NCBI GenBank assembly: GCA_018384595.1
Contig: JAHAYO010000009.1
Span: forward strand, 11,233-75,232
Direction of reading: 5' to 3'
Length of the DNA: 64,000 nt
Origin: Thiopseudomonas sp.
GTDB lineage: Bacteria; Pseudomonadota; Gammaproteobacteria; Pseudomonadales; Pseudomonadaceae
This document shows, in pieces, positions 29,262 through 37,942 of the stretch. The position numbers and the translations under genes are program-made. Every line of letters starts with the position of its first letter. The stretch's first letter is position 1. A model generated the notes under the pieces. That model was not told the origin of the DNA. It was given only the letters and a program-made list of their open reading frames with translations, and made no database searches.

Positions 29262-30032
29262 CTAATCGTACATCTGTTTTTTCTTCCACAGATCGTCGTC
29301 TTCCGCCTCGGCCATGGAAGCCGACAGCTCACTGGCCTGACTGGCCGCGCTTTGGTCATGCGCCATCACGATGGCATTGGTTTTTTGCAGTAGCGTATCG
29401 AATACCTGTAGGCGCTCGGTAAACGGCTGCAGGTTTTTCTGGCGTTTGATCAGCCCTACCGCACGCTCGAACACCAGCCTAGCCTGACGGGCCTGACCAC
29501 GCTGCAGATGGTTCTGGCCCGATGCATGAAAAAAGTCCAGATACAGGTTGATTAACTGTTCCTGCAGATGGGCCAACCACTGACGGCCCGTGTTAACCGG
29601 CACTGCGCCGTCTTGGATCGCGCGTTTCAGCTGGGCATGCAGGCTCTCAAGCTGAAAACGAATTTCTTTAACTTGCTCCTCCGAATGCAGGCTCAACTTT
29701 TCGCCGGGCAGCTGATAAGCCGTGCCTAGCGAAATGCGCTCTCGCAGTTCTTCGCCGCGCGCCTGTAGTTTGATCTGGCTGTCGTCGAGCTTGAGCAGCT
29801 CATTAATGAAGCCAAGCTCAAGCTCGTGCAAACCCTGCTTGATCGTGGCGGTCAGGTACTGGGGCGGCAAGCCTTCGGAGAGGGTGGCCAAACGCATCTG
29901 GCGGTCAACCAACGCCGAGCGGCGGCGCGCCTGTTCTAGCTTTTTTTTCTCGTACTGATTGTTCAGATAACCCAGAATAATTAGGGCAAAAATCCCGACA
30001 ACCACCAAGGCAACAATAAAGGCAGATGACAT
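29262..30032 (-). CDS. Conserved hypothetical protein, N-terminal TM plus helical domain
   Basis: 256-aa ORF filling the gap between the MerR and TetR genes. Confidence 0.75.
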   Translation of the reverse strand: MSSAFIVALVVVGIFALIILGYLNNQYEKKKLEQARRRSALVDRQMRLATLSEGLPPQYLTATIKQGLHELELGFINELLKLDDSQIKLQARGEELRERISLGTAYQLPGEKLSLHSEEQVKEIRFQLESLHAQLKRAIQDGAVPVNTGRQWLAHLQEQLINLYLDFFHASGQNHLQRGQARQARLVFERAVGLIKRQKNLQPFTERLQVFDTLLQKTNAIVMAHDQSAASQASELSASMAEAEDDDLWKKKQMYD

Positions 30033-30111
30033 CAGTTCATCCTATTCGTGACCGACTCGGGGTTAGGATACGTCTGCCAAGCAATCACCTGCACCAGCAG
30101 ACGGGCTGCTC

Positions 30112-30468
30112 TCACGCCTTGAGCAGCCTAAGCACGTCCTCCAGTTCGGTGATCATCTGGCGGATCACCAACTTGTAACGGGTGCTTTCCTCGCCGTTCT
30201 GTTCATTGCTCAACCGCTGGCGGGCACCGCCAATGGTAAAGCCCTGATCATACAGCAGGCTGCGGATCTGGCGAATCATCAAAACGTCATGGTGCTGGTA
30301 GTAACGCCGGTTGCCGCGTCGTTTGACCGGAGTCAGCTGCTCGAACTCTTGCTCCCAATAGCGCAGCACGTGCGGCTTGACACCACACAGCTCACTGACT
30401 TCACCAATGGTGAAATAGCGTTTGCCGGGAATCGGCGGCAATTCGTTATTATGGCTGGCTTCCAGCAT
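30112..30468 (-). CDS. MerR-family regulator coupled to ihfA
   Basis: [30 protein letters not shown]. Confidence 0.93.
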
Positions 30469-30751
30469 GGCTTTCGACGCGCTCCCTCAGTTTTTGTCCT
30501 GGACGGAAAGTCACCACACGCCTGGCGCTAATAGGAACTTCCTCGCCGGTTTTAGGATTGCGGCCGGGACGCTGGCGCTTGTCACGCAACTCAAAGTTGC
30601 CAAATCCGGAGATTTTGACAGGCTCGTTATTTTCCAGAGACGCACGAATTTCTTCAAAAAACAGGTCCACCAGTTCTTTGGCTTCCCGCTTGTTGAGGCC
30701 CAGCTCGAAAAATAAGTTTTCGGCCATATCTGCCTTGGTTAACGCGCTCAT
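30449..30751 (-). CDS. ihfA: Integration host factor alpha subunit
   Basis: [26 protein letters not shown]. Confidence 0.96.
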
Positions 30752-30754
30752 GCA

Positions 30755-33133
30755 TCACGTCCTTAGGGTTGCCCCGAAGCTAGTTTGTAAGGCTTGCAGC
30801 ATCTGCTCAACGTTAGCGTTGATTTCATCGTCCGTAAGAGTGCGTGATGGATGCTGCCAGGTCAAGCCTAGCGCAAGGCTTTTGCGATCTGGCTCAATCC
30901 CTTGGCCCTGATACACATCAAACAGGCGCACATCATTCAACCAATCTCCGGCGTGCTCGCGCATGCAACCGGTAATCTCGGCTGCTGGCACGGCAGCATC
31001 CACAACCAACGCAAAGTCCCTGCGTACTTCTGGGAAACGCGACAGCTCTTGGAACGCAGGTAGTTTGCCCAGCTGGATGGCTTCCAATTCCAGCTCAAAC
31101 ATCTGTACATTCTGGTCGATATCCAGCTCGCTAGCGGTTTGCGGATGCAAAGTGCCCAGATGGCCAATTACCTGACCATCACGTTCAATAGCAGCACACT
31201 GGCCGGGGTGAAAGCCATCTTTTTGTGCCGGCTTAAAGCTGAAGGCATCCAGACTGCCGGCCGCAGCCAGCACAGCTTCGACATCGGCTTTCAGGTCGTA
31301 AAAATCAACCTTGTCCTTGCCATTGGCCCAGCCTTCGGGCAGGCGCAAGCCGGTGATAACACCCGCCAGCATCGGTTCCTGCTTTAAATTGTCCAACTGG
31401 CCAACAAAGCGCAAACCGCTTTCGAACAGGCGTACACGGGTTTGCTGGCGGTTCAAGTTATGTGCCAGCGCCTTGAGCAGACCCGGCAACAAAGATGAGC
31501 GCATGCAGGACAGATCAGCAGAAATCGGATTGGCCAATTTCAGCGGCGGCTGCTGGCTGAACAGCACATAGCTATCTTCGTCGATAAAGCTGTAGGTCAC
31601 CGCTTCCTGATAACCACGCGCCACCAGCAGGCGGCGCAGCAGCGGTAATTCGGCACGGGCTTCGGTCTTCTTTTGTGGCGCCAGACGTGCCGCCGGATAG
31701 CGCACGGGCAGGCGGTCGTAGTTGTACAGACGACCGGCTTCCTCGATCAGGTCTTCCTCGATGCTGATGTCAAAGCGGTGACTGGGTACGTCAACCTGCC
31801 ACTGCCCTGCTCCTTCGGCTTTGAGCTCAAGCCCCAGCGGCAGCAGCAGGCTTTCAATTTCGTTATCGGTCAGCTCAAGACCAAACATGCTGTTGACCCG
31901 CTCGGCACGCAACTTGACCTGCTGTGTTTGCGGCATGGCGCTGTCATCGCGGGCATCAATCAATGGCCCGGCCTCACCGCCGACAATTTCCAGCAACAGT
32001 TCGGTGGCGCGCTGCATGGCGCGTGCGGCCAGATCATAGTCCACACCGCGCTCAAAACGGTGCGAAGCATCAGTATGCAGCCCATAACTGCGTGCCTTGC
32101 CGGCCACGGCGATGGGGGCAAAAAAGGCACTTTCCAGAAACAGGTCTTTAGTGCTGGCGGTATCCACGCCGCTATCTTCACCACCCATCACGCCGGCAAT
32201 GGCCAGCGCCCGTTCGTGGTCGGCAATCACCAGCGTATCGCTGTTGAGCTTGACTTCCTGCCCATCCAGCAAGGTCAGCGGCTCGCCCGCCTGCGCCATG
32301 CGTACGCGGATACCACCGCGAATCTGCGCCAAATCGAAGGCATGCATCGGCTGCCCCAATTCCAGCATCACATAGTTGGTCACATCCACTGCAGGGTCGA
32401 TGCTGCGCACACCGCTACGCTCAAGGCGGGTTTTCATCCAGTCGGGCGTTGGGCGAGTCAGGTCAATATTACGAATTACGCGACCTACATAGCGCGGGCA
32501 AGCGGAGGGAGCCAGCAGCTCAACCGGCAACACCTGCTCGTGACTGGCGGAAATCTCTTTAATTTGCGGGTAACTGACCTCTGTGCTGTACAAAGCACCC
32601 ACTTCACGTGCCAGGCCAGTCAGTGACAGACAGTCACCGCGGTTGGGGGTCAGATCAACCTCGATGCTGACATCATCAAGATCCAGATATTCGCGCAGGC
32701 ACTGGCCCACCGGCGCATCCGCCGGCAGCTCGATAATGCCGTTGTGATCCTCGCTGATTTTTAGTTCTGCATCTGAACACAGCATGCCGAAGGATTCGAC
32801 ACCACGCAGCTTGGCTTTCTTGATTTTGAAATCGCCTGGCAATACAGCGCCCACTTTGGCAAAGGCCACTTTCAGGCCGGCACGGGCATTGGGTGCACCA
32901 CAGACCACATTGACCTGCTGCTCACCATCGCTAACCACGCACAGGCTGAGCTTGTCGGCATTTGGGTGCTGGCCGCACTCCAGTACCTCGCCGACCACCA
33001 CACCGGAAAACTCGCCAGCCACCGGCTCCACTGCATCCACTTCCAGACCGGCCATGGATAGCCGGGCCACCAGTTCGTCACGGCCAACTTGCGGATTAAC
33101 TAGAGTGCGCAACCATTGTTCACTGAATTTCAT
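30755..33133 (-). CDS. pheT: Phenylalanine--tRNA ligase beta subunit
   Basis: MKFSEQWLR, LTPNRGDCLS, RFERGVD, FPEVRRD; 792 aa. Confidence 0.98.
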   Translation of the reverse strand: MKFSEQWLRTLVNPQVGRDELVARLSMAGLEVDAVEPVAGEFSGVVVGEVLECGQHPNADKLSLCVVSDGEQQVNVVCGAPNARAGLKVAFAKVGAVLPGDFKIKKAKLRGVESFGMLCSDAELKISEDHNGIIELPADAPVGQCLREYLDLDDVSIEVDLTPNRGDCLSLTGLAREVGALYSTEVSYPQIKEISASHEQVLPVELLAPSACPRYVGRVIRNIDLTRPTPDWMKTRLERSGVRSIDPAVDVTNYVMLELGQPMHAFDLAQIRGGIRVRMAQAGEPLTLLDGQEVKLNSDTLVIADHERALAIAGVMGGEDSGVDTASTKDLFLESAFFAPIAVAGKARSYGLHTDASHRFERGVDYDLAARAMQRATELLLEIVGGEAGPLIDARDDSAMPQTQQVKLRAERVNSMFGLELTDNEIESLLLPLGLELKAEGAGQWQVDVPSHRFDISIEEDLIEEAGRLYNYDRLPVRYPAARLAPQKKTEARAELPLLRRLLVARGYQEAVTYSFIDEDSYVLFSQQPPLKLANPISADLSCMRSSLLPGLLKALAHNLNRQQTRVRLFESGLRFVGQLDNLKQEPMLAGVITGLRLPEGWANGKDKVDFYDLKADVEAVLAAAGSLDAFSFKPAQKDGFHPGQCAAIERDGQVIGHLGTLHPQTASELDIDQNVQMFELELEAIQLGKLPAFQELSRFPEVRRDFALVVDAAVPAAEITGCMREHAGDWLNDVRLFDVYQGQGIEPDRKSLALGLTWQHPSRTLTDDEINANVEQMLQALQTSFGATLRT

Positions 33134-33154
33134 GCTGTTCTCCTCAAGTCAGAA

Positions 33155-34171
<1,017 letters not shown>

Positions 34172-34194
34172 TTAACCTTGACTCCGGTGGAGAT

Positions 34195-34228
34195 GCTTGC
34201 AAAGCGCTCTGTGATGTTCTTTGCAAGC
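34195..34228. repeat. Inverted repeat upstream of pheS
   Basis: GCTTGCAAAG-N14-CTTTGCAAGC perfect 10-bp arms. Confidence 0.7.
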
Positions 34229-34258
34229 AGCTCTGATTGTGCTTTGGTAGAGACGGAC

Positions 34259-34364
34259 CCACGTGGAGTATGGGTTACGCAAACACGCCGCAAGTACATC
34301 CCTGTAGGCTCCAGCAACGCCATCCCTGGCGTTGCAAGGTTTGCTCCACCCATACTCCACGTGG
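34259..34364. repeat. 106-bp element with 17-bp terminal inverted repeats and nested hairpins (REP/MITE-like)
   Basis: CCACGTGGAGTATGGGT ... ACCCATACTCCACGTGG; inner GCAACGCCA-TCCC-TGGCGTTGC and TACA-TCCC-TGTA. Confidence 0.7.
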
Positions 34365-34432
34365 ACACCACATTCCGCGCTGTCCTCATTTACTCCGTCT
34401 GCGATACGTACGATTGAGAAATGAAGAGAGCT

Positions 34433-34470
34433 AAAACAAAATAAGGGAAGAGCCATGGCCCTTCCCTTAT
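34433..34470 (-). terminator. Intrinsic terminator after rplT
   Basis: ATAAGGGAAG-AGCCATGGCC-CTTCCCTTAT followed by TTTGTTTT on the minus strand. Confidence 0.75.
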
Positions 34471-34501
34471 CAAGCAATTCAGCGATAGAGCTGGAAAGAC
34501 C

Positions 34502-34858
34502 TTAAACCAAGGAGGCTTTGGCTTTCTCAACAATAGCGGCAAAAGCTGCTTTTTCGTTTACTGCCAGATCAGCCAGTACCTTACGGTCGATTTCAATGGA
34601 AGCCTTTTTCAGACCTGCAATGAAACGGCTGTAGGACAGACCGTTGATGCGGGCACCAGCGTTGATGCGAGCAATCCACAGAGCGCGGAATTGACGCTTA
34701 CGCTGACGACGGTCACGGTAGGCATACTGACCGGCCTTGATCACGGCCTGTTTAGCTACGCGGAATACGCGTGAACGCGCGCCGTAGTAACCTTTAGCCA
34801 GCTTTAGAACTTTTTTGTGACGGGCGCGTGCCTGTACACCACGTTTTACTCGAGCCAT
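34502..34858 (-). CDS. rplT: 50S ribosomal protein L20
   Basis: [29 protein letters not shown]. Confidence 0.99.
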
Positions 34859-34880
34859 TCTCTATTCTCCTCGACCTGGA

Positions 34881-35075
34881 TTAACGAACACGCAACATGC
34901 GTTCAACGTTGGCGACATCGGAAGGATGCACCTGGCTGCAACCGCGCAGCTGACGCTTACGCTTGGTGGTCATTTTGGTCAGGATGTGGCTCTTGAAAGC
35001 GTGCTTGTGCTTGAAGCCGTTGGCCGTAGCCTTAAAGCGCTTCTTCGCACCGCTTTTGGTTTTCATTTTTGACAT
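34881..35075 (-). CDS. rpmI: 50S ribosomal protein L35
   Basis: [19 protein letters not shown]. Confidence 0.98.
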
Positions 35076-35156
35076 GTTTGAACTCCGCATTCAAAGGTAT
35101 AAACAACAGTAACCTTGGGGCCTGTCAACGCCCGGGCTGCAAGCAGCCGGTTGGGG

Positions 35157-35705
35157 TTACTTTTTCTTTTTGGGGGCGATGACCATGATCAGCTGGCGTC
35201 CTTCCATCTTAGGATGCTGTTCTACGGTACCGTATTCAACCAGGTCGTTTTCAACCTGTTTGAGCAACTCCATACCCAGCTCCTGGTGGGCCATCTCGCG
35301 GCCGCGGAAACGCAAGGTCACCTTGGCTTTGTCCCCTTCTTCTAGGAAACGTATCAGGTTGCGTAGTTTTACCTGATAATCCCCTACGTCCGTCCCTGGC
35401 CGAAACTTAACTTCTTTCACTTGGATCTGCTTCTGGTTTTTGCGTGCTTGCGCCTGCTGTTTTTTCTTTTCAAACAGGTGCTTGCCGTAGTCCATGATGC
35501 GGCAGACCGGAGGTTGCGCATCCGGAGAAATCTCAACCAGATCCAGCTTGGCCTCTTCGGCAGCGGCCAATGCTTCGTCAATCGAGACGATCCCGACTTG
35601 TTCTCCGTCTGCGCCAATCAGGCGAATTTCACGGGCGGTAATATTTTCATTAATCGGTGCCTTAGGGGCTGAACGTCTGTCTTGTCTCATATCTCGTTTG
35701 AAGAT
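35157..35705 (-). CDS. infC: Translation initiation factor IF-3 (start uncertain: ATC at 35705 or ATG at 35690)
   Basis: [38 protein letters not shown]. Confidence 0.96.
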
Positions 35706-35923
35706 TCCTCTCAGGATGTGGCTTTCGCCAAATTCGTTACAGTCTATAGAGCGGTCGCGTGAGCAGGCTTGCAACTGTAACGCCTTGTTTTACTTGTCCC
35801 GAAACCCTGCCTATCTCGATAAGGCAATGTCCCGATATAAAATGACTCGCGGATTTTATAGGCAAACGACTGATTACTCAAGCCGGATGTGGTTAGCGCG
35901 CGCAAAAGCTGTCCTTGTTTGAG

Positions 35924-35958: not shown

Positions 35959-36171
35959 GCTGGAAGCAGATTGCGCTACGCCACAGACCACCGTGTGTGC
36001 CACCGACTTGGCTGTTTTTTAACCACCCGCGTATTGGTTTGCTTTTCAACAGGTTACAACGTAAAACCCGCATCGCATACAGGGCATCAGCACAGGCTAA
36101 CAGCCACATGCGCAGCGTTCGCACCTGTTAGCAACCGCTGGAGCCAAGCCCGTCAGCCCCATCCAATTCTG

Positions 36172-37032
36172 CTAATCCTCATCACCCAGCACCGTGTTGC
36201 GGTCTAGGCCATGCCGATCCAGCGCCGTGCGTAGCGCGGTCAACGCGCGATTGCGCAGCTGTATGACCTGCTGGCGACTCATCCCCAGCCGCGCGCCGCA
36301 GGCCGGCAAGCTGTGTTTCTCCTCGCCCTCCAGCCCAAAGCACAGTACCAACACCTGTGACTGCATCTGTGGCAGGCAACCTATCCAGTGTTCAATTTTT
36401 TCCTGTAGCCGTTGGCGGGCCAGCTCATGGCAGGGAGACAGATGGCAGATGTGCTCATCCAGCGCGGGCGTCAAACCATCCAGCTCGCCACTGTAGTCTG
36501 CGCGCGGACTGAACGCTTGCATACTCTCTGGCAGGTCCTGTATCTGTTGTCGGCGCGCCGCAAGGCGCTGTTCACGCCGCTGCTGCAACACCAGCTTCCT
36601 AGGACGCGCCACCACCGACACCTGCTGCTCAAGCACTTGCTCCATGGCGGCGCGTATCCACCAGGTGGCATAGGTTGAAAAACGGCGGTCAAACGCTGGA
36701 TCGAATTTTTCGACCGCACGGATCAGCGCCAGATTACCGGCTGCCACCAACTCAGCATGCAGGGCACCGCTGCGCCGGTACTTTTTAGCGATGCTGATAA
36801 CCAGCCCCAGATTATGCAGAATCATGGCCGTGCGCGCCTGCCCATCCCCTGCCTGAACGCGACGGGCATAGGCCTGCTCTTGCTCACGCCCGAGCAGCGG
36901 CAGGCGCACAGCGCCGCAGCTGTAGCGGGGGCTGTCTTCGCGCAGCGCAAAGACTTGGTCCGCTATCAGCCATACCGATGATGAAAAAACATGTGTTGGA
37001 TAATGATGCAACGCAGCAGCTGAAGCTGGCAT
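36172..37032 (-). CDS. Diverged sigma-70-family factor at the rpoS locus
   Basis: GNLALIRAVEKFDP, RFSTYATWWIR, region-4-like CFGLEG...LGMSRQQVIQL; directly downstream of nlpD. Confidence 0.85.
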   Translation of the reverse strand: MPASAAALHHYPTHVFSSSVWLIADQVFALREDSPRYSCGAVRLPLLGREQEQAYARRVQAGDGQARTAMILHNLGLVISIAKKYRRSGALHAELVAAGNLALIRAVEKFDPAFDRRFSTYATWWIRAAMEQVLEQQVSVVARPRKLVLQQRREQRLAARRQQIQDLPESMQAFSPRADYSGELDGLTPALDEHICHLSPCHELARQRLQEKIEHWIGCLPQMQSQVLVLCFGLEGEEKHSLPACGARLGMSRQQVIQLRNRALTALRTALDRHGLDRNTVLGDED

Positions 37033-37102
37033 GGCGACGTCCTCCCTGACGTAGAGTGCGGGATGCAAAGCATCCCTGCTGGGTGTACTGGGGCCGGATT
37101 AT

Positions 37103-37942
37103 TTACCGTTTGGGCAAATACTGCAAGGGGTCTACCGGACTGCCCTGGCGGCGGATTTCAAAGTGCAGTTTGACCTGATCGGTGCCCGTCGAGCCCATCT
37201 CGGCGATCTGCTGTCCAGCACTCACCTGCTGGCCTTCATTGACCAGCAACCGGCGGTTGTGTCCGTACGCACTGATGTAGGTATCGTCATGGTTAATGAT
37301 GACCATTTCACCGTAGCCGCGTAGGTCGCCGCCGGCATAGACCACGGTGCCCTTGCTCGATGCACGCACCGGCTGGCCGAGGCGGCCGGCAATATCAATG
37401 CCCTTGTTCAGTGAGGAACCGGATGAAAAGCGACTGATCACTGCGCCCTCAGCCGGCCACTGCCACTTGCCAGCGGTAGAAGGCACCGCGGTCGGCTTTT
37501 GCGTGGCAGCCGGTTTGCTGGCTGGCGTGGTGGGCGTCGGTGCCGGTTTGCTCGCCGGCTTGCTGGCAGGCGGTGTGGCCGGTTTGCTGACCGGTTTGGC
37601 AACAGGCTTGGTAGCCACCGCCCTGGTAGAGGTCTTGCGCGATAGCTGAATCACCTGCCCAGGTTTAATGGTATAGGGCGCGGCAATGCCGTTGATGGCT
37701 GCCAGCTCTTTCCAGTCACGGCCCAGACGAAATGCGATGGAGTATAGAGTGTCCTTAGGCTGTACACGGTAGCTACCCGAGGTCACCGGACGCGCACTCA
37801 CCGTGCGACTGCCCTGAGCGTTGTGCTGACGGTCCACCACCGGCGCGTTACCACTGCCTGTACAGCCAGCCAGCAACAGAGCCAGCCCCGCAGCCATACA
37901 GCCAAAACGCCCCGCCCTTGCAAAGAGTGCACCCTTAGTCAT
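37103..37942 (-). CDS. nlpD: LysM/M23 lipoprotein NlpD
   Basis: Lipobox LAGC, LysM YRVQPKDTLYSIA, NKGIDI, LHFEIRR. Confidence 0.93.
   Translation of the reverse strand: MTKGALFARAGRFGCMAAGLALLLAGCTGSGNAPVVDRQHNAQGSRTVSARPVTSGSYRVQPKDTLYSIAFRLGRDWKELAAINGIAAPYTIKPGQVIQLSRKTSTRAVATKPVAKPVSKPATPPASKPASKPAPTPTTPASKPAATQKPTAVPSTAGKWQWPAEGAVISRFSSGSSLNKGIDIAGRLGQPVRASSKGTVVYAGGDLRGYGEMVIINHDDTYISAYGHNRRLLVNEGQQVSAGQQIAEMGSTGTDQVKLHFEIRRQGSPVDPLQYLPKR

What the first reader, a model, noticed from the sequence alone, without database searches (positions are those of the whole stretch)
36172..37032. Intact but strongly diverged sigma factor occupying the rpoS locus
The position is exactly surE-pcm-DUF368-nlpD-[rpoS] and the frame is uninterrupted (286 aa). 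The core of region 2 survives (AVEKFDP, RFSTYATWWIR). However, the region 1.2 motif (DATQLYL-type) is unrecognisable, and region 2.4 reads AAMEQVLEQQ instead of QTIERAIMNQ. Region 3 is about 20 residues shorter than the RpoS sequence I recall. The -35-recognition helix reads SRQQVIQL instead of TRERVRQI, losing conserved Arg/Glu contacts. Neighbouring genes are well conserved, so the divergence is gene-specific. Inference: either relaxed selection (RpoS decay) or a change of function, such as altered promoter specificity or a core-RNAP-binding antagonist. The SD (AGGGAG) lies in the loop of a small ACGTC/GACGT stem, preceded by a GGGATGC-AAA-GCATCCC hairpin at 37060-37076.
Basis: partly seen in the sequence, partly recalled or inferred. 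Interest (0 to 1): 0.7.

Follow-up and report, generated by a model that had tools for sequence, protein, structure and literature searches.

The report
Remodelled RpoS sigma factor lacking domain 3
This intact gene is the true rpoS (stress sigma factor) of a Thiopseudomonas bacterium, but across this genus the normally very conserved protein has been rebuilt step by step: it has lost its middle domain and changed its promoter-reading residues, yet it is still kept by selection.

Summary
Window 36172-37032 (-) is an uninterrupted 286-aa sigma-70-family ORF directly downstream of surE-pcm-DUF368-nlpD. It is the positional rpoS ortholog, and the genome (a Thiopseudomonas MAG) has no second rpoS.

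It scores 158 bits on the RpoS equivalog model (cut-off 379), less than the RpoD paralog scores on that model (284). It has no Pfam region 3. It is 22 residues shorter between regions 2 and 4. It differs at 14 near-universal sigma residues.

This is not strain-specific decay. All nine other Thiopseudomonas genomes searched carry intact, graded versions. The same allele occurs in at least 20 metagenomes without frameshifts.

dN/dS is 0.22-0.25 overall: 0.03-0.09 in sigma-2, 0.13-0.24 in sigma-4, and near 1 in the N-tail and former region 3.1/3.2. AlphaFold gives confident sigma-2 and sigma-4 joined by one basic helix and a disordered linker. A canonical control folds a normal sigma-3.

Twenty-six columns are conserved in the derived clade with a new residue. 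They cluster in regions 3.0 and 4.2.

Most likely it is a working sigma factor with an ECF-like two-domain build and changed promoter reading. This is untested. It is a new variant of a known kind, of moderate interest.

The parts
36172..37032 (-). Complete CDS of the remodelled RpoS ortholog (286 codons plus TAG stop at 36172-36174)
   Evidence: Best NCBIfam family is RpoS TIGR02394 at 157.6 bits, cut-off 378.7. Best PDB sequence matches are P. aeruginosa and E. coli RpoS.
36904..37032 (-). N-terminal tail, residues 1-43: disordered and fast-evolving; the acidic N-terminus of canonical RpoS is gone
   Evidence: pLDDT is below 50 for residues 1-32. dN/dS versus G002 is 0.88-0.96. Net protein charge is +5, against -7 to -12 in canonical RpoS.
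36625..36903 (-). Regions 1.2(C-terminal half) to 2.4 = sigma-2 domain, residues 44-136: core-binding and -10 melting module
   Evidence: Pfam r1_2 22.4 bits and r2 56.4 bits. pLDDT 86-98. dN/dS 0.03-0.09. F118, Y121, W124 and W125 are invariant in the clade.
36535..36624 (-). Former region 3.0, residues 137-166: arginine-rich helix VSVVARPRKLVLQQRREQRL..., re-specified relative to TRTIRLPIHVVKELNVYLR
   Evidence: 8 of the 26 re-specified columns fall here. AF2 models it as part of one continuous helix 118-165. dN/dS 0.23-0.56.
36442..36534 (-). Remnant of regions 3.1/3.2, residues 167-197: disordered linker of variable length; the two C-terminal helices of sigma-3 are deleted
   Evidence: pLDDT is below 50 for residues 171-189. 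The canonical control folds helices at 170-189, 196-203 and 207-217 at pLDDT 90-97. No Pfam r3. Spacing is 96-117 in the clade versus 128. dN/dS 0.45-1.1.
36208..36441 (-). Sigma-4 domain, residues 198-275, starting at the invariant S199-P200-C201; recognition helix SRQQVIQLRNRAL instead of TRERVRQIQVEAL
   Evidence: Pfam r4 32.1 bits. pLDDT 90-98. dN/dS 0.13-0.24. 8 re-specified columns fall here. E254Q, R255Q and R257I replace residues that are 97-100% conserved in 58 other group 1/2 sigmas.
37037..37052 (-). Shine-Dalgarno AGGGAG (37042-37047) flanked by ACGTC/GACGT; start codon ATG at 37030-37032
   Evidence: The motif GTCAnGGAGGAC followed by ATG is conserved across the genus. The stem is not in the centroid fold.
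37060..37076 (-). 7-bp hairpin GGGAUGC-UUU-GCAUCCC between the nlpD stop (37103-37105) and the SD
   Evidence: It is kept in G002 with only the loop changed and is absent in more distant relatives.
37103..37942 (-). nlpD (LysM + M23 peptidase), the upstream synteny anchor
   Evidence: The order ispF-truD-surE-pcm-DUF368-nlpD-sigma is kept in G001-G003, G005-G009 (G004 partial) and in G013, G022, G024 (G022 without DUF368).
36067..36083 (-). Terminator-like hairpin plus T-run about 90 nt downstream of the stop codon
   Evidence: This is a consensus scan only, and the number found is not above the shuffle expectation.

Best explanation
The gene is the vertically inherited rpoS ortholog of a Thiopseudomonas species. 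It is the end state of a genus-wide, stepwise remodelling of sigma-S.

SHOWN
- Orthology by synteny, with no second rpoS in the genome.
- Evolution many times faster than the neighbouring genes and RpoD.
- Purifying selection on sigma-2 and sigma-4, and near-neutral evolution of the N-tail and the former region 3.1/3.2.
- Loss of the sigma-3 three-helix bundle. One arginine-rich helix remains, followed by a ~35-residue disordered linker whose length varies within the clade.
- Loss of the acidic N-terminus, and a change of net charge from about -10 to about +5.
- Replacement of near-universal residues in regions 2.4, 3.0, 4.1 and 4.2. Many of the new residues are themselves conserved within the clade.

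INFERRED
- The protein still binds core RNA polymerase through sigma-2 and sigma-4.
- It still opens a -10 element, because the F/Y/W/W melting residues are invariant.
- It therefore works as an alternative sigma factor, in a two-domain mode like that of ECF sigmas, with the linker taking the path of region 3.2.
- It reads the -12/-13 position, the extended -10 and the -35 differently from canonical sigma-S, or more loosely. The extra arginines of the 3.0 helix probably add non-specific DNA contacts.
- Its regulon is probably smaller or different, in keeping with the 2.2-2.8 Mb genomes.
For: ORTHOLOGY
- Synteny is shown. RpoS is the best family and the best PDB match.
- GC (0.607) and GC3 (0.664) match the neighbouring genes.
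- With RpoD as outgroup, all Thiopseudomonas proteins form one clade beside canonical RpoS: (G005,G009),(G007,(P0124, G000 group, G001 group)).
- No second rpoS exists in G000, G003, G005 or G007.

SELECTION
- Whole-gene dN/dS is 0.22-0.25 (bootstrap range 0.15-0.34).
- By domain: sigma-2 0.03-0.09, sigma-4 0.13-0.24, linker 0.45-1.1, N-tail ~0.9.
- 72 columns are invariant across eight clade members that are only 41-76% identical.
- Of 198 canonical-conserved columns, 58 are kept, 26 re-specified and 114 relaxed. The re-specified ones cluster in region 3.0 (8) and region 4 (8).

STRUCTURE
- AF2 mean pLDDT is 80.7, with sigma-2 and sigma-4 at 90-98, a single helix 118-165, and residues 171-189 below 50.
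- The same alignment with a canonical RpoS as target gives a normal sigma-3 at pLDDT 90-97.

POPULATION
- The allele is held by at least 20 metagenomes (pig gut, manure, compost, landfill, wastewater).
- In the eight runs laid on it, the gene shows three single-base differences and no indels. The most frequent is C>G at 36319, a Glu-to-Asp change.
- Metatranscriptome contigs cover the gene at 2-7x, similar to nlpD and pcm.

CONTROLS
- RpoD in the same genome is fully canonical.
Against: - There is no functional data of any kind.
- 114 canonical-conserved columns are simply relaxed. Whole-gene dN/dS is 2-10 times that of the neighbours. Part of the change is therefore loss of constraint.
- The G000 subclade has also replaced four residues in the core-binding regions 2.1/2.2 that are 97-100% conserved elsewhere: R76G, D94E, E98A and G102A. 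This could weaken core binding.
- A related 2.6-Mb genome that is 100% complete (G021) has no rpoS at all. RpoS is therefore dispensable in this group.
- The position equivalent to sigma-70 Q437 (reads -12) is not conserved even within the clade (A/E/Q). That fits drift better than a new specificity.
- The transcript evidence is low-depth and could be DNA carry-over.
- dS is 0.5-1.2, so the dN/dS estimates are rough.
Confidence: 0.55

Rival explanations
1. Hypomorphic RpoS with the same role. As the genomes shrank and the regulon contracted, constraint on sigma-S fell. The protein drifted but still does the old job (general stress and stationary-phase transcription) from essentially the same, mostly -10-driven promoters. 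It has gained no new specificity.
For: - 114 relaxed columns against 26 re-specified ones.
- The genus genomes are small, 1.4-2.8 Mb assemblies.
- RpoS HMM scores fall in a gradient across small-genome relatives: G024 310, G015 267, G005 247, G007 195, G000 158 bits. One of these relatives (G021) has lost the gene outright.
- The -12-reading position is variable inside the clade.
- From my own knowledge, not tested here: sigma-S promoters are known to depend little on the -35 element.
Against: - Regions 3.0 and 4.2 are not merely degraded. They are fixed to new, clade-invariant residues (RPR.L.LQ.R, SRQ.V, R260, A263, L264) across members only 41-48% identical.
- Charge reversal and clean loss of a whole sub-domain are unusual for simple drift.
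Confidence: 0.27
2. A non-initiating sigma derivative. The protein binds core RNAP or DNA but no longer directs initiation. It would act as a competitor of RpoD or as a plain DNA-binding regulator.
For: - It lacks sigma-3 and has a shortened region 3.2 'finger'.
- It lacks universal -35-contact residues.
- It is a basic protein with no autoinhibitory acidic N-terminus.
- The G000 subclade has altered region 2.2 residues.
Against: - The residues used for -10 strand capture and melting (F118, Y121, W124, W125; R117 too) are invariant in the clade, and sigma-2 has dN/dS 0.03-0.09. That conservation is hard to explain for a protein that never opens DNA.
- From my own knowledge, not tested here: ECF sigmas initiate without sigma-3.
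Confidence: 0.08
3. A pseudogene in the making. The ORF is open only by chance or recency, and the product has no function.
For: - It scores far below the RpoS model cut-off.
- rpoS is lost in a related genus.
Against: - Intact ORFs occur in all ten Thiopseudomonas genomes and several further metagenomic lineages, over divergences where dS is saturated.
- dN/dS is well below 1.
- The eight metagenome runs laid on the gene show no indels or stops.
- A strong SD plus ATG is conserved across the genus.
Confidence: 0.04
4. Xenologous replacement. A foreign sigma-70-family gene replaced rpoS at the locus.
For: - Recombination between Thiopseudomonas species does occur right next to the gene. The infC-pheST-ihfA block is 87% identical to G006, while the flanks are 72-75%.
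- The concatenated neighbour-gene tree places G007 beside G000/G002, unlike the sigma tree.
Against: - A profile search of 1.84 billion representative proteins finds the derived form in only about four 50% clusters, all from this lineage. No outside donor family appears.
- Graded intermediates sit at the same locus.
- Composition is native.
- The neighbour genes do not reject a tree congruent with the sigma tree (AU p = 0.14).
Confidence: 0.03

Closest known systems
Canonical RpoS (sigma-S / sigma-38) of Pseudomonas and Enterobacteria (e.g. PDB 7vf9, 7f0r, 5ipl)
   Same: - Same locus, downstream of nlpD.
- Best sequence, profile and fold match.
- Regions 1.2(C-terminal half), 2.1-2.3 and the sigma-4 fold are retained.
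- The WW/Y/F melting residues are retained.
   Different: - 158 bits against a cut-off of 379.
- No sigma-3 bundle, and 22 residues shorter.
- Acidic N-terminus lost and net charge reversed.
- Near-universal residues replaced: Q128A and R132Q (region 2.4), R142A (3.0), R231C (4.1), E254Q, R255Q and R257I (4.2).
- The Lys that aligns with E. coli K173 (a -13C reader, from my own knowledge) is Leu here (column 214).
ECF (group 4) sigma factors
   Same: A working architecture of sigma-2 plus a flexible linker plus sigma-4, with no folded sigma-3. This is the architecture predicted here. The protein passes the TIGR02937 superfamily model (81.5 bits, cut-off 42.9), but all sigma-70-family proteins do.
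   Different: - It is derived from a group 2 sigma, not related by descent to ECFs.
- It keeps region 1.2, the region 3.0 helix and the group 1/2 type YATWW melting motif.
- No anti-sigma gene lies beside it.
- The best family hits are RpoS and RpoD, not ECF subfamilies.
Borrelia burgdorferi RpoS (a short, divergent RpoS with a specialised regulon)
   Same: It is a precedent for an rpoS-named sigma that is short, sequence-divergent and controls a lineage-specific regulon. This rests on my own knowledge and on titles seen. It was not compared here.
   Different: It comes from a different phylum, there is no nlpD synteny argument, and no sequence or structure comparison was made here.
Attenuated or null rpoS alleles in E. 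coli and Salmonella isolates
   Same: They also reflect lowered or shifting selection on RpoS.
   Different: Those are recent strain-level point mutations, frameshifts or truncations (my own knowledge). Here the change is ancient and genus-wide, the gene is intact, and it is under purifying selection.

Membership tests
RpoS (sigma-S), gammaproteobacterial equivalog | Positional orthology: encoded immediately downstream of nlpD in the surE-pcm-nlpD-rpoS cluster | tested here: met
   The gene order is conserved in G001-G003, G005-G009 (G004 partial) and in three other Pseudomonadaceae genera (one lacks DUF368).
RpoS (sigma-S), gammaproteobacterial equivalog | Scores above the curated cut-off of the equivalog HMMs (TIGR02394 378.7 bits; NF004207 394 bits) | tested here: not met
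   157.6 and 150.3 bits. The RpoD paralog of the same genome scores 283.6 bits on TIGR02394.
RpoS (sigma-S), gammaproteobacterial equivalog | RpoS is the best-matching sigma family (ahead of RpoD, RpoH and FliA) | tested here: met
   RpoS gives the top two NCBIfam hits, the top PDB sequence hits and the top Foldseek hit, 5ipl_F.
RpoS (sigma-S), gammaproteobacterial equivalog | Group 2 domain set: regions 1.2, 2, 3 (folded sigma-3) and 4 | tested here: not met
   Regions 1.2, 2 and 4 are found. Region 3 is absent from Pfam and from the AF2 model, while the canonical control folds it.
RpoS (sigma-S), gammaproteobacterial equivalog | Conserved promoter-reading residues in regions 2.4, 3.0 and 4.2 (RQTIERAI, IHVVKE, TRERVRQI) | tested here: not met
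   The sequences here are RAAMEQVL, RKLVLQ and SRQQVIQL.
RpoS (sigma-S), gammaproteobacterial equivalog | Directs the stationary-phase / general stress regulon | not testable with these tools
   This needs a mutant, RNA-seq or ChIP-seq in a cultured Thiopseudomonas.
Sigma-70 family (functional sigma factor) | Sigma-2 with core-binding region 2.1/2.2 and aromatic -10 melting residues; sigma-4 helix-turn-helix | tested here: met
   Pfam r2 56.4 bits and r4 32.1 bits. F118, Y121, W124 and W125 are invariant in the clade. Caveat: the G000 subclade has R76G, D94E, E98A and G102A in regions 2.1/2.2.
ECF (group 4) sigma factors | Only sigma-2 and sigma-4, no region 1.2; usually co-encoded with an anti-sigma factor; matches ECF subfamily models | tested here: not met
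   Region 1.2 and a region 3.0 helix are present. No anti-sigma neighbour was seen among the genes beside it: the window has infC, and other genus members have rraA, a small ORF, cmpX and sigX. Only the general superfamily model TIGR02937 is passed.

The most novel reading that the evidence does not exclude
Thiopseudomonas preserves, in living sister species, the successive stages by which a group 2 sigma factor (sigma-S) turns into a basic, two-domain, ECF-like sigma with a new promoter code.

The stages seen are:
1. G005/G009: near-canonical length with a weak region 3.
2. G007: region 3 no longer detected, ancestral region 4.2 partly kept.
3. P0124 lineage: new RPRRLLLQQRR helix, full-length linker, SRERVR kept.
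4. Derived form: region 3.1/3.2 deleted, SRQxVIxLR in region 4.2.

If so, it would be a natural experiment on how sigma domains are lost and promoter recognition is rewired. It would also imply that the general stress response of this genus runs on a promoter grammar different from that of other gammaproteobacteria.
Probability: 0.3. Interest if true: 0.65.

Novelty: new variant of a known kind. Interest (0 to 1): 0.45.

Why it matters
RpoS is normally among the most conserved proteins of gammaproteobacteria. Here two other genera share 87% RpoS identity while their Pcm proteins share only 66%. Its architecture is taken as fixed.

A genus in which the true ortholog has shed sigma-3, reversed its charge and re-specified its DNA-reading helices, while staying under selection, shows that group 2 sigmas can be restructured in nature.

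It also offers a graded series of natural variants for asking three questions:
- What sigma-3 and the region 4.2 Arg/Glu contacts contribute to promoter choice.
- Whether a region 3.2 'finger' of arbitrary sequence is enough for initiation.
- How a stress regulon is rewired during genome reduction.

On the practical side, automatic annotation names these proteins only 'sigma-70 family'. Thiopseudomonas, which is common in manure, compost, landfill and wastewater metagenomes, could therefore be wrongly scored as lacking RpoS.

Tried and rejected
1. Second canonical rpoS elsewhere. None was found in G000, G003, G005 or G007.

2. rsmZ or another known RNA downstream of rpoS, or a known leader upstream. 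Rfam at E<=1 gives only a sub-threshold Ysr224 hit, in the rplT-pheS gap.

3. Regulatory leader structure. The fold is no better than shuffles, and the stems are conserved only in the closest relative.

4. Word-indexed protein search. It found only relatives at 64% identity or more and then jumped to generic sigmas. The genus orthologs came from the whole-genome search and the profile search.

5. First sigma tree, with RpoH and RpoD as outgroups. It was dominated by long-branch effects and did not recover RpoS monophyly. Dropping RpoH and adding P0124 gave a coherent tree. G024 is still pulled to the root.

6. Chimeric MAG contig at the rpoS-infC junction. I suspected this because PheT is 95% identical to G006. 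It is rejected: single contigs from independent metagenomes span the junction with even depth, and G002's contig reaches the same junction.

7. Horizontal origin of the sigma gene. Composition is native, there is no outside donor family, and the AU test does not reject congruence (p = 0.14).

8. P0003 and P0125 as 'intermediates'. They are assembly chimeras joined at the RFSTYATWWIR word.

9. dN/dS for deeper pairs. dS is saturated, so only the G000/G002/P0005 trio was used.

10. Literature. No paper in the library links Thiopseudomonas with RpoS or with sigma factors. A search for RpoS 'lacks region 3' found no paper using that phrase.
Full report
WHAT IS THERE

Window 36172-37032 on the minus strand is an open frame of 286 codons. 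It starts at an ATG preceded by AGGGAGGA and ends at TAG. Upstream on the same strand lie NlpD (LysM + M23), a DUF368/VCA0040-like membrane protein, Pcm and SurE, then TruD and IspF.

Pfam finds sigma-70 region 2 (56 bits), region 4 (32 bits) and the C-terminal half of region 1.2 (22.4 bits, just above the cut-off). It finds no region 3 even at E<=1. The best NCBIfam families are the two RpoS equivalogs, at 157.6 and 150.3 bits against cut-offs of 378.7 and 394. The best solved-structure matches by sequence and by fold are P. aeruginosa and E. coli RpoS. Against the P. aeruginosa chain, 44 query residues (154-197) stand where the chain has 66 (183-248).

ORGANISM AND ORTHOLOGY

The window lies in a 2.25-Mb MAG of 124 contigs, 91% complete. 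The genome also has a canonical RpoD, an RpoH and a FliA, but no other RpoS-like gene. Its closest public relative is an uncultured Thiopseudomonas MAG.

A whole-genome search of 40 relatives found one ortholog in each of the nine other genomes of the genus, all without stops. Identity to this protein is 76% (G002), 45-48% (G001, G003, G004, G006, G008), 41% (G007) and 37% (G005, G009). All other genera of the family and order carry ordinary ~330-aa RpoS proteins. In G001-G003 and G005-G009, and in three other genera, the gene follows ispF-truD-surE-pcm-DUF368-nlpD (one genus lacks DUF368); G004's contig starts at nlpD. GC and GC3 equal those of the neighbours. It is therefore the resident rpoS ortholog, not an insertion.

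HOW UNUSUAL THE DIVERGENCE IS

Two canonical genera (G013, G022) share 87% RpoS identity although their Pcm, SurE, NlpD and TruD proteins share only 59-73%. Inside Thiopseudomonas the order is reversed: RpoS orthologs share 32-66%, while Pcm shares 76-94%. RpoD of G000 is 81-90% identical to its genus orthologs.

RpoD of this genome is textbook in regions 2-4. On the RpoS HMM it scores 284 bits, more than the true ortholog does (158 bits here, 195 in G007, 247 in G005).

The same search shows lower-than-normal scores in two other small-genome genera (G024 at 310 bits, G015 at 267). It finds no rpoS at all in a 100%-complete 2.6-Mb genome (G021). Constraint on RpoS seems to have loosened in a group of reduced pseudomonads.

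A profile of the eight most derived proteins was searched against 1.84 billion representatives. It finds only about four clusters of this type before falling to the plateau of ordinary sigmas. The form is lineage-restricted.

IS IT DECAYING?

No. Three sequences close enough for synonymous sites to be informative were compared: G000, G002 and the metagenomic P0005.
- Whole-gene dN/dS is 0.22-0.25 (bootstrap 0.15-0.34).
- It is 0.03-0.09 in sigma-2 (residues 44-136) and 0.13-0.24 in sigma-4 (198-275).
- It is 0.23-0.56 in the region 3.0 helix.
- It is roughly 0.5-1 in the first 43 residues and in residues 167-197.
- Neighbouring genes give 0.02-0.15.

Across eight clade members that are only 41-76% identical, 72 columns are invariant. 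At least 20 metagenomes from pig gut, manure, compost, landfill, wastewater and bioreactors hold the same allele. In the eight runs laid on it, the gene shows three single-base differences (the most frequent a conservative Glu-to-Asp change) and no indel. Contigs of four metatranscriptome runs cover the gene at about the depth of nlpD and pcm, with gaps over the intergenic regions. This is weak evidence of transcription.

WHAT CHANGED

Columns conserved in nine canonical RpoS sequences were compared with the eight derived proteins. Of these columns, 58 are kept, 114 are relaxed and 26 are fixed to a different residue. Eight of the re-fixed columns lie in the 30-residue region 3.0 and eight in region 4.
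- Region 3.0 changes from TRTIRLPIHVVKELNVYLR to S(V/I)V.RPR(R/K)L(L/V)LQQRR.QRL. It gains three to five positive charges.
- Region 4.2 changes from LTRERVRQIQVEAL to LSRQ.VI.LR.RAL. It loses the Glu and two Arg that are 97-100% conserved in 58 other group 1/2 sigmas, and gains two Arg further along the helix.
- The residues aligning with sigma-70 Q437 and R441 (numbering from my own knowledge) are Ala and Gln here. The first of these is not conserved even within the clade.
- The residues aligning with sigma-70 F427, Y430, W433 and W434, which capture and open the -10 element (established knowledge, not tested here), are invariant.
- The spacing from YATWW to FGL is exactly 128 in every canonical sequence and 96-117 in the derived ones.
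- Net charge goes from -7/-12 to +5/+9.
- The G000 subclade has additionally replaced four residues of regions 2.1/2.2 that are 97-100% conserved elsewhere (R76G, D94E, E98A, G102A). It then kept them under strong purifying selection.

STRUCTURE

AlphaFold2 was run on a 66-sequence alignment dominated by canonical sigmas.
- For the window protein it gives confident sigma-2 and sigma-4 (pLDDT 90-98), a single long helix 118-165, and a disordered stretch 166-199 (pLDDT below 50 for 171-189).
- With a canonical RpoS (G013) as target and the same sequences, it predicts the break after region 2.4, the region 3.0 helix and the two further sigma-3 helices at pLDDT 90-97.

The absence of a sigma-3 bundle is therefore a property of this sequence, not of the method.

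HISTORY

With RpoD as outgroup, the Thiopseudomonas proteins form one clade next to canonical RpoS. The order is (G005,G009), G007, then P0124 together with the two derived groups. Branch lengths are several-fold those of canonical RpoS.

The stages are visible in the sequences:
- G005/G009 keep length and SRERVR, and have a weak region 3 (29 bits).
- G007 has lost the Pfam region 3 signal but keeps RLRFGL and R.RIRQLQ.
- P0124 has the new RPRRLLLQQRR helix with a full-length linker and SRERVR.
- The derived forms add the deletion and SRQxVIxLR.

A tree of the six flanking genes instead puts G007 next to G000/G002. It does not reject the sigma-tree order (AU p = 0.14). It does marginally reject a stricter grouping that excludes P0124 (p = 0.03). 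I regard vertical, stepwise change as most likely. Allele exchange between species cannot be excluded, especially since a recombinant block begins about 430 bp downstream.

MECHANISM (inference)

The parts a sigma needs to bind core and open DNA are the parts under the strongest selection. The parts that read the -12/-13 position, the extended -10 and the -35 have been replaced. The domain between them has become a flexible tether.

The simplest reading is a still-functional alternative sigma that works in the two-domain manner of ECF sigmas. In those, a linker of unrelated sequence takes the path of region 3.2 (established knowledge from ECF holoenzyme structures, not tested here). The protein would recognise promoters differently or less stringently than sigma-S. 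The arginine-rich helix would supply extra, probably non-specific, DNA contacts upstream of the -10.

I put 0.55 on this reading. I put 0.27 on a merely drifted RpoS with the old specificity. Small odds go to a non-initiating competitor, a pseudogene or a xenolog.

LEADER

The hairpin at 37060-37076 and the ACGTC/GACGT stem around the SD exist as described. The 96-nt leader is no more stable than shuffled sequence (z = 0.10). The SD stem is missing from the centroid structure. Both stems are shared only with the closest relative, without compensatory changes. What is conserved genus-wide is the SD context GTCAnGGAGGAC. I attach no regulatory meaning to the stems.

COMPARISON WITH THE KNOWN, AND NOVELTY

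By locus and best match the gene is rpoS. By the curated equivalog threshold, the domain set and the promoter-reading residues it fails the family definition.

It resembles ECF sigmas in predicted working architecture. It is not one of them: it has region 1.2, a region 3.0 helix and the YATWW motif, and no anti-sigma neighbour.

No paper in the searchable library connects Thiopseudomonas with RpoS or sigma factors.

I class it as a new variant of a known kind. It is of moderate interest (0.45) because all functional statements are still inference.

Noticed in passing
window 29262-35745 (ihfA-pheT-pheS-rplT-rpmI-infC): This operon block is 87% DNA-identical to genome G006 (PheT 95% aa), while the flanks are only 72-75% identical to G006. 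The otherwise closest genome, G002, has a PheT C-terminus only 80% identical. G000 has a single pheT. Other Thiopseudomonas have rraA-orf-cmpX-sigX-oprF downstream of rpoS instead. The rpoS-infC junction is real: single contigs from independent metagenomes span it, and G002 shares it. It looks like an inter-species transfer or translocation of the infC-pheST-ihfA operon. That would explain why infC is detached from thrS.
   Followed up: partly
window 34264-34359 (rplT-pheS gap): A ~95-bp element has dozens of copies at 80-95% identity in all six Thiopseudomonas genomes searched. It is a dispersed REP/MITE-like repeat. The sub-threshold Rfam Ysr224 hit (34243-34342, 32 bits versus 70) falls on it.
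   Followed up: partly
proteins P0003 (310 aa) and P0125 (434 aa) from public metagenome assemblies: These are chimeric assemblies. A canonical RpoS N-terminus is joined to this protein's C-terminus (P0003), or region 2 is duplicated (P0125). The join is at the conserved word RFSTYATWWIR. The Logan contigs of several runs also break inside the gene at 36252-36280, with higher word depth there.
   Followed up: partly
relatives G021, G015, G024 (other small-genome Pseudomonadaceae genera): G021 (2.6 Mb, 100% complete) has no rpoS homolog at all. G015 (2.5 Mb) and G024 (3.3 Mb) have rpoS orthologs scoring only 267 and 310 bits on TIGR02394 (cut-off 379). RpoS erosion is therefore not confined to Thiopseudomonas.
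   Followed up: partly
window 36172-37032, residues C39, C196, C201, C219, C231, C245: The protein has six cysteines (2.1%), against about one in canonical RpoS. They include C196-x4-C201 in 'CHLSPCH' at the start of sigma-4. Only C201 is invariant in the clade. A redox or metal role is pure speculation.
   Followed up: no
window 37541-37578 (nlpD, Pro/Ala/Lys-rich linker): Contigs of two metatranscriptome runs skip 36 bases in frame (12 codons) in the low-complexity linker of NlpD. This is a length polymorphism between populations.
   Followed up: no
window 36067-36083 (-): A terminator-like hairpin with a T-run lies about 90 nt downstream of the sigma gene's stop codon. The remaining ~300 nt before infC carries two weak sigma-70-like promoter matches.
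   Followed up: no
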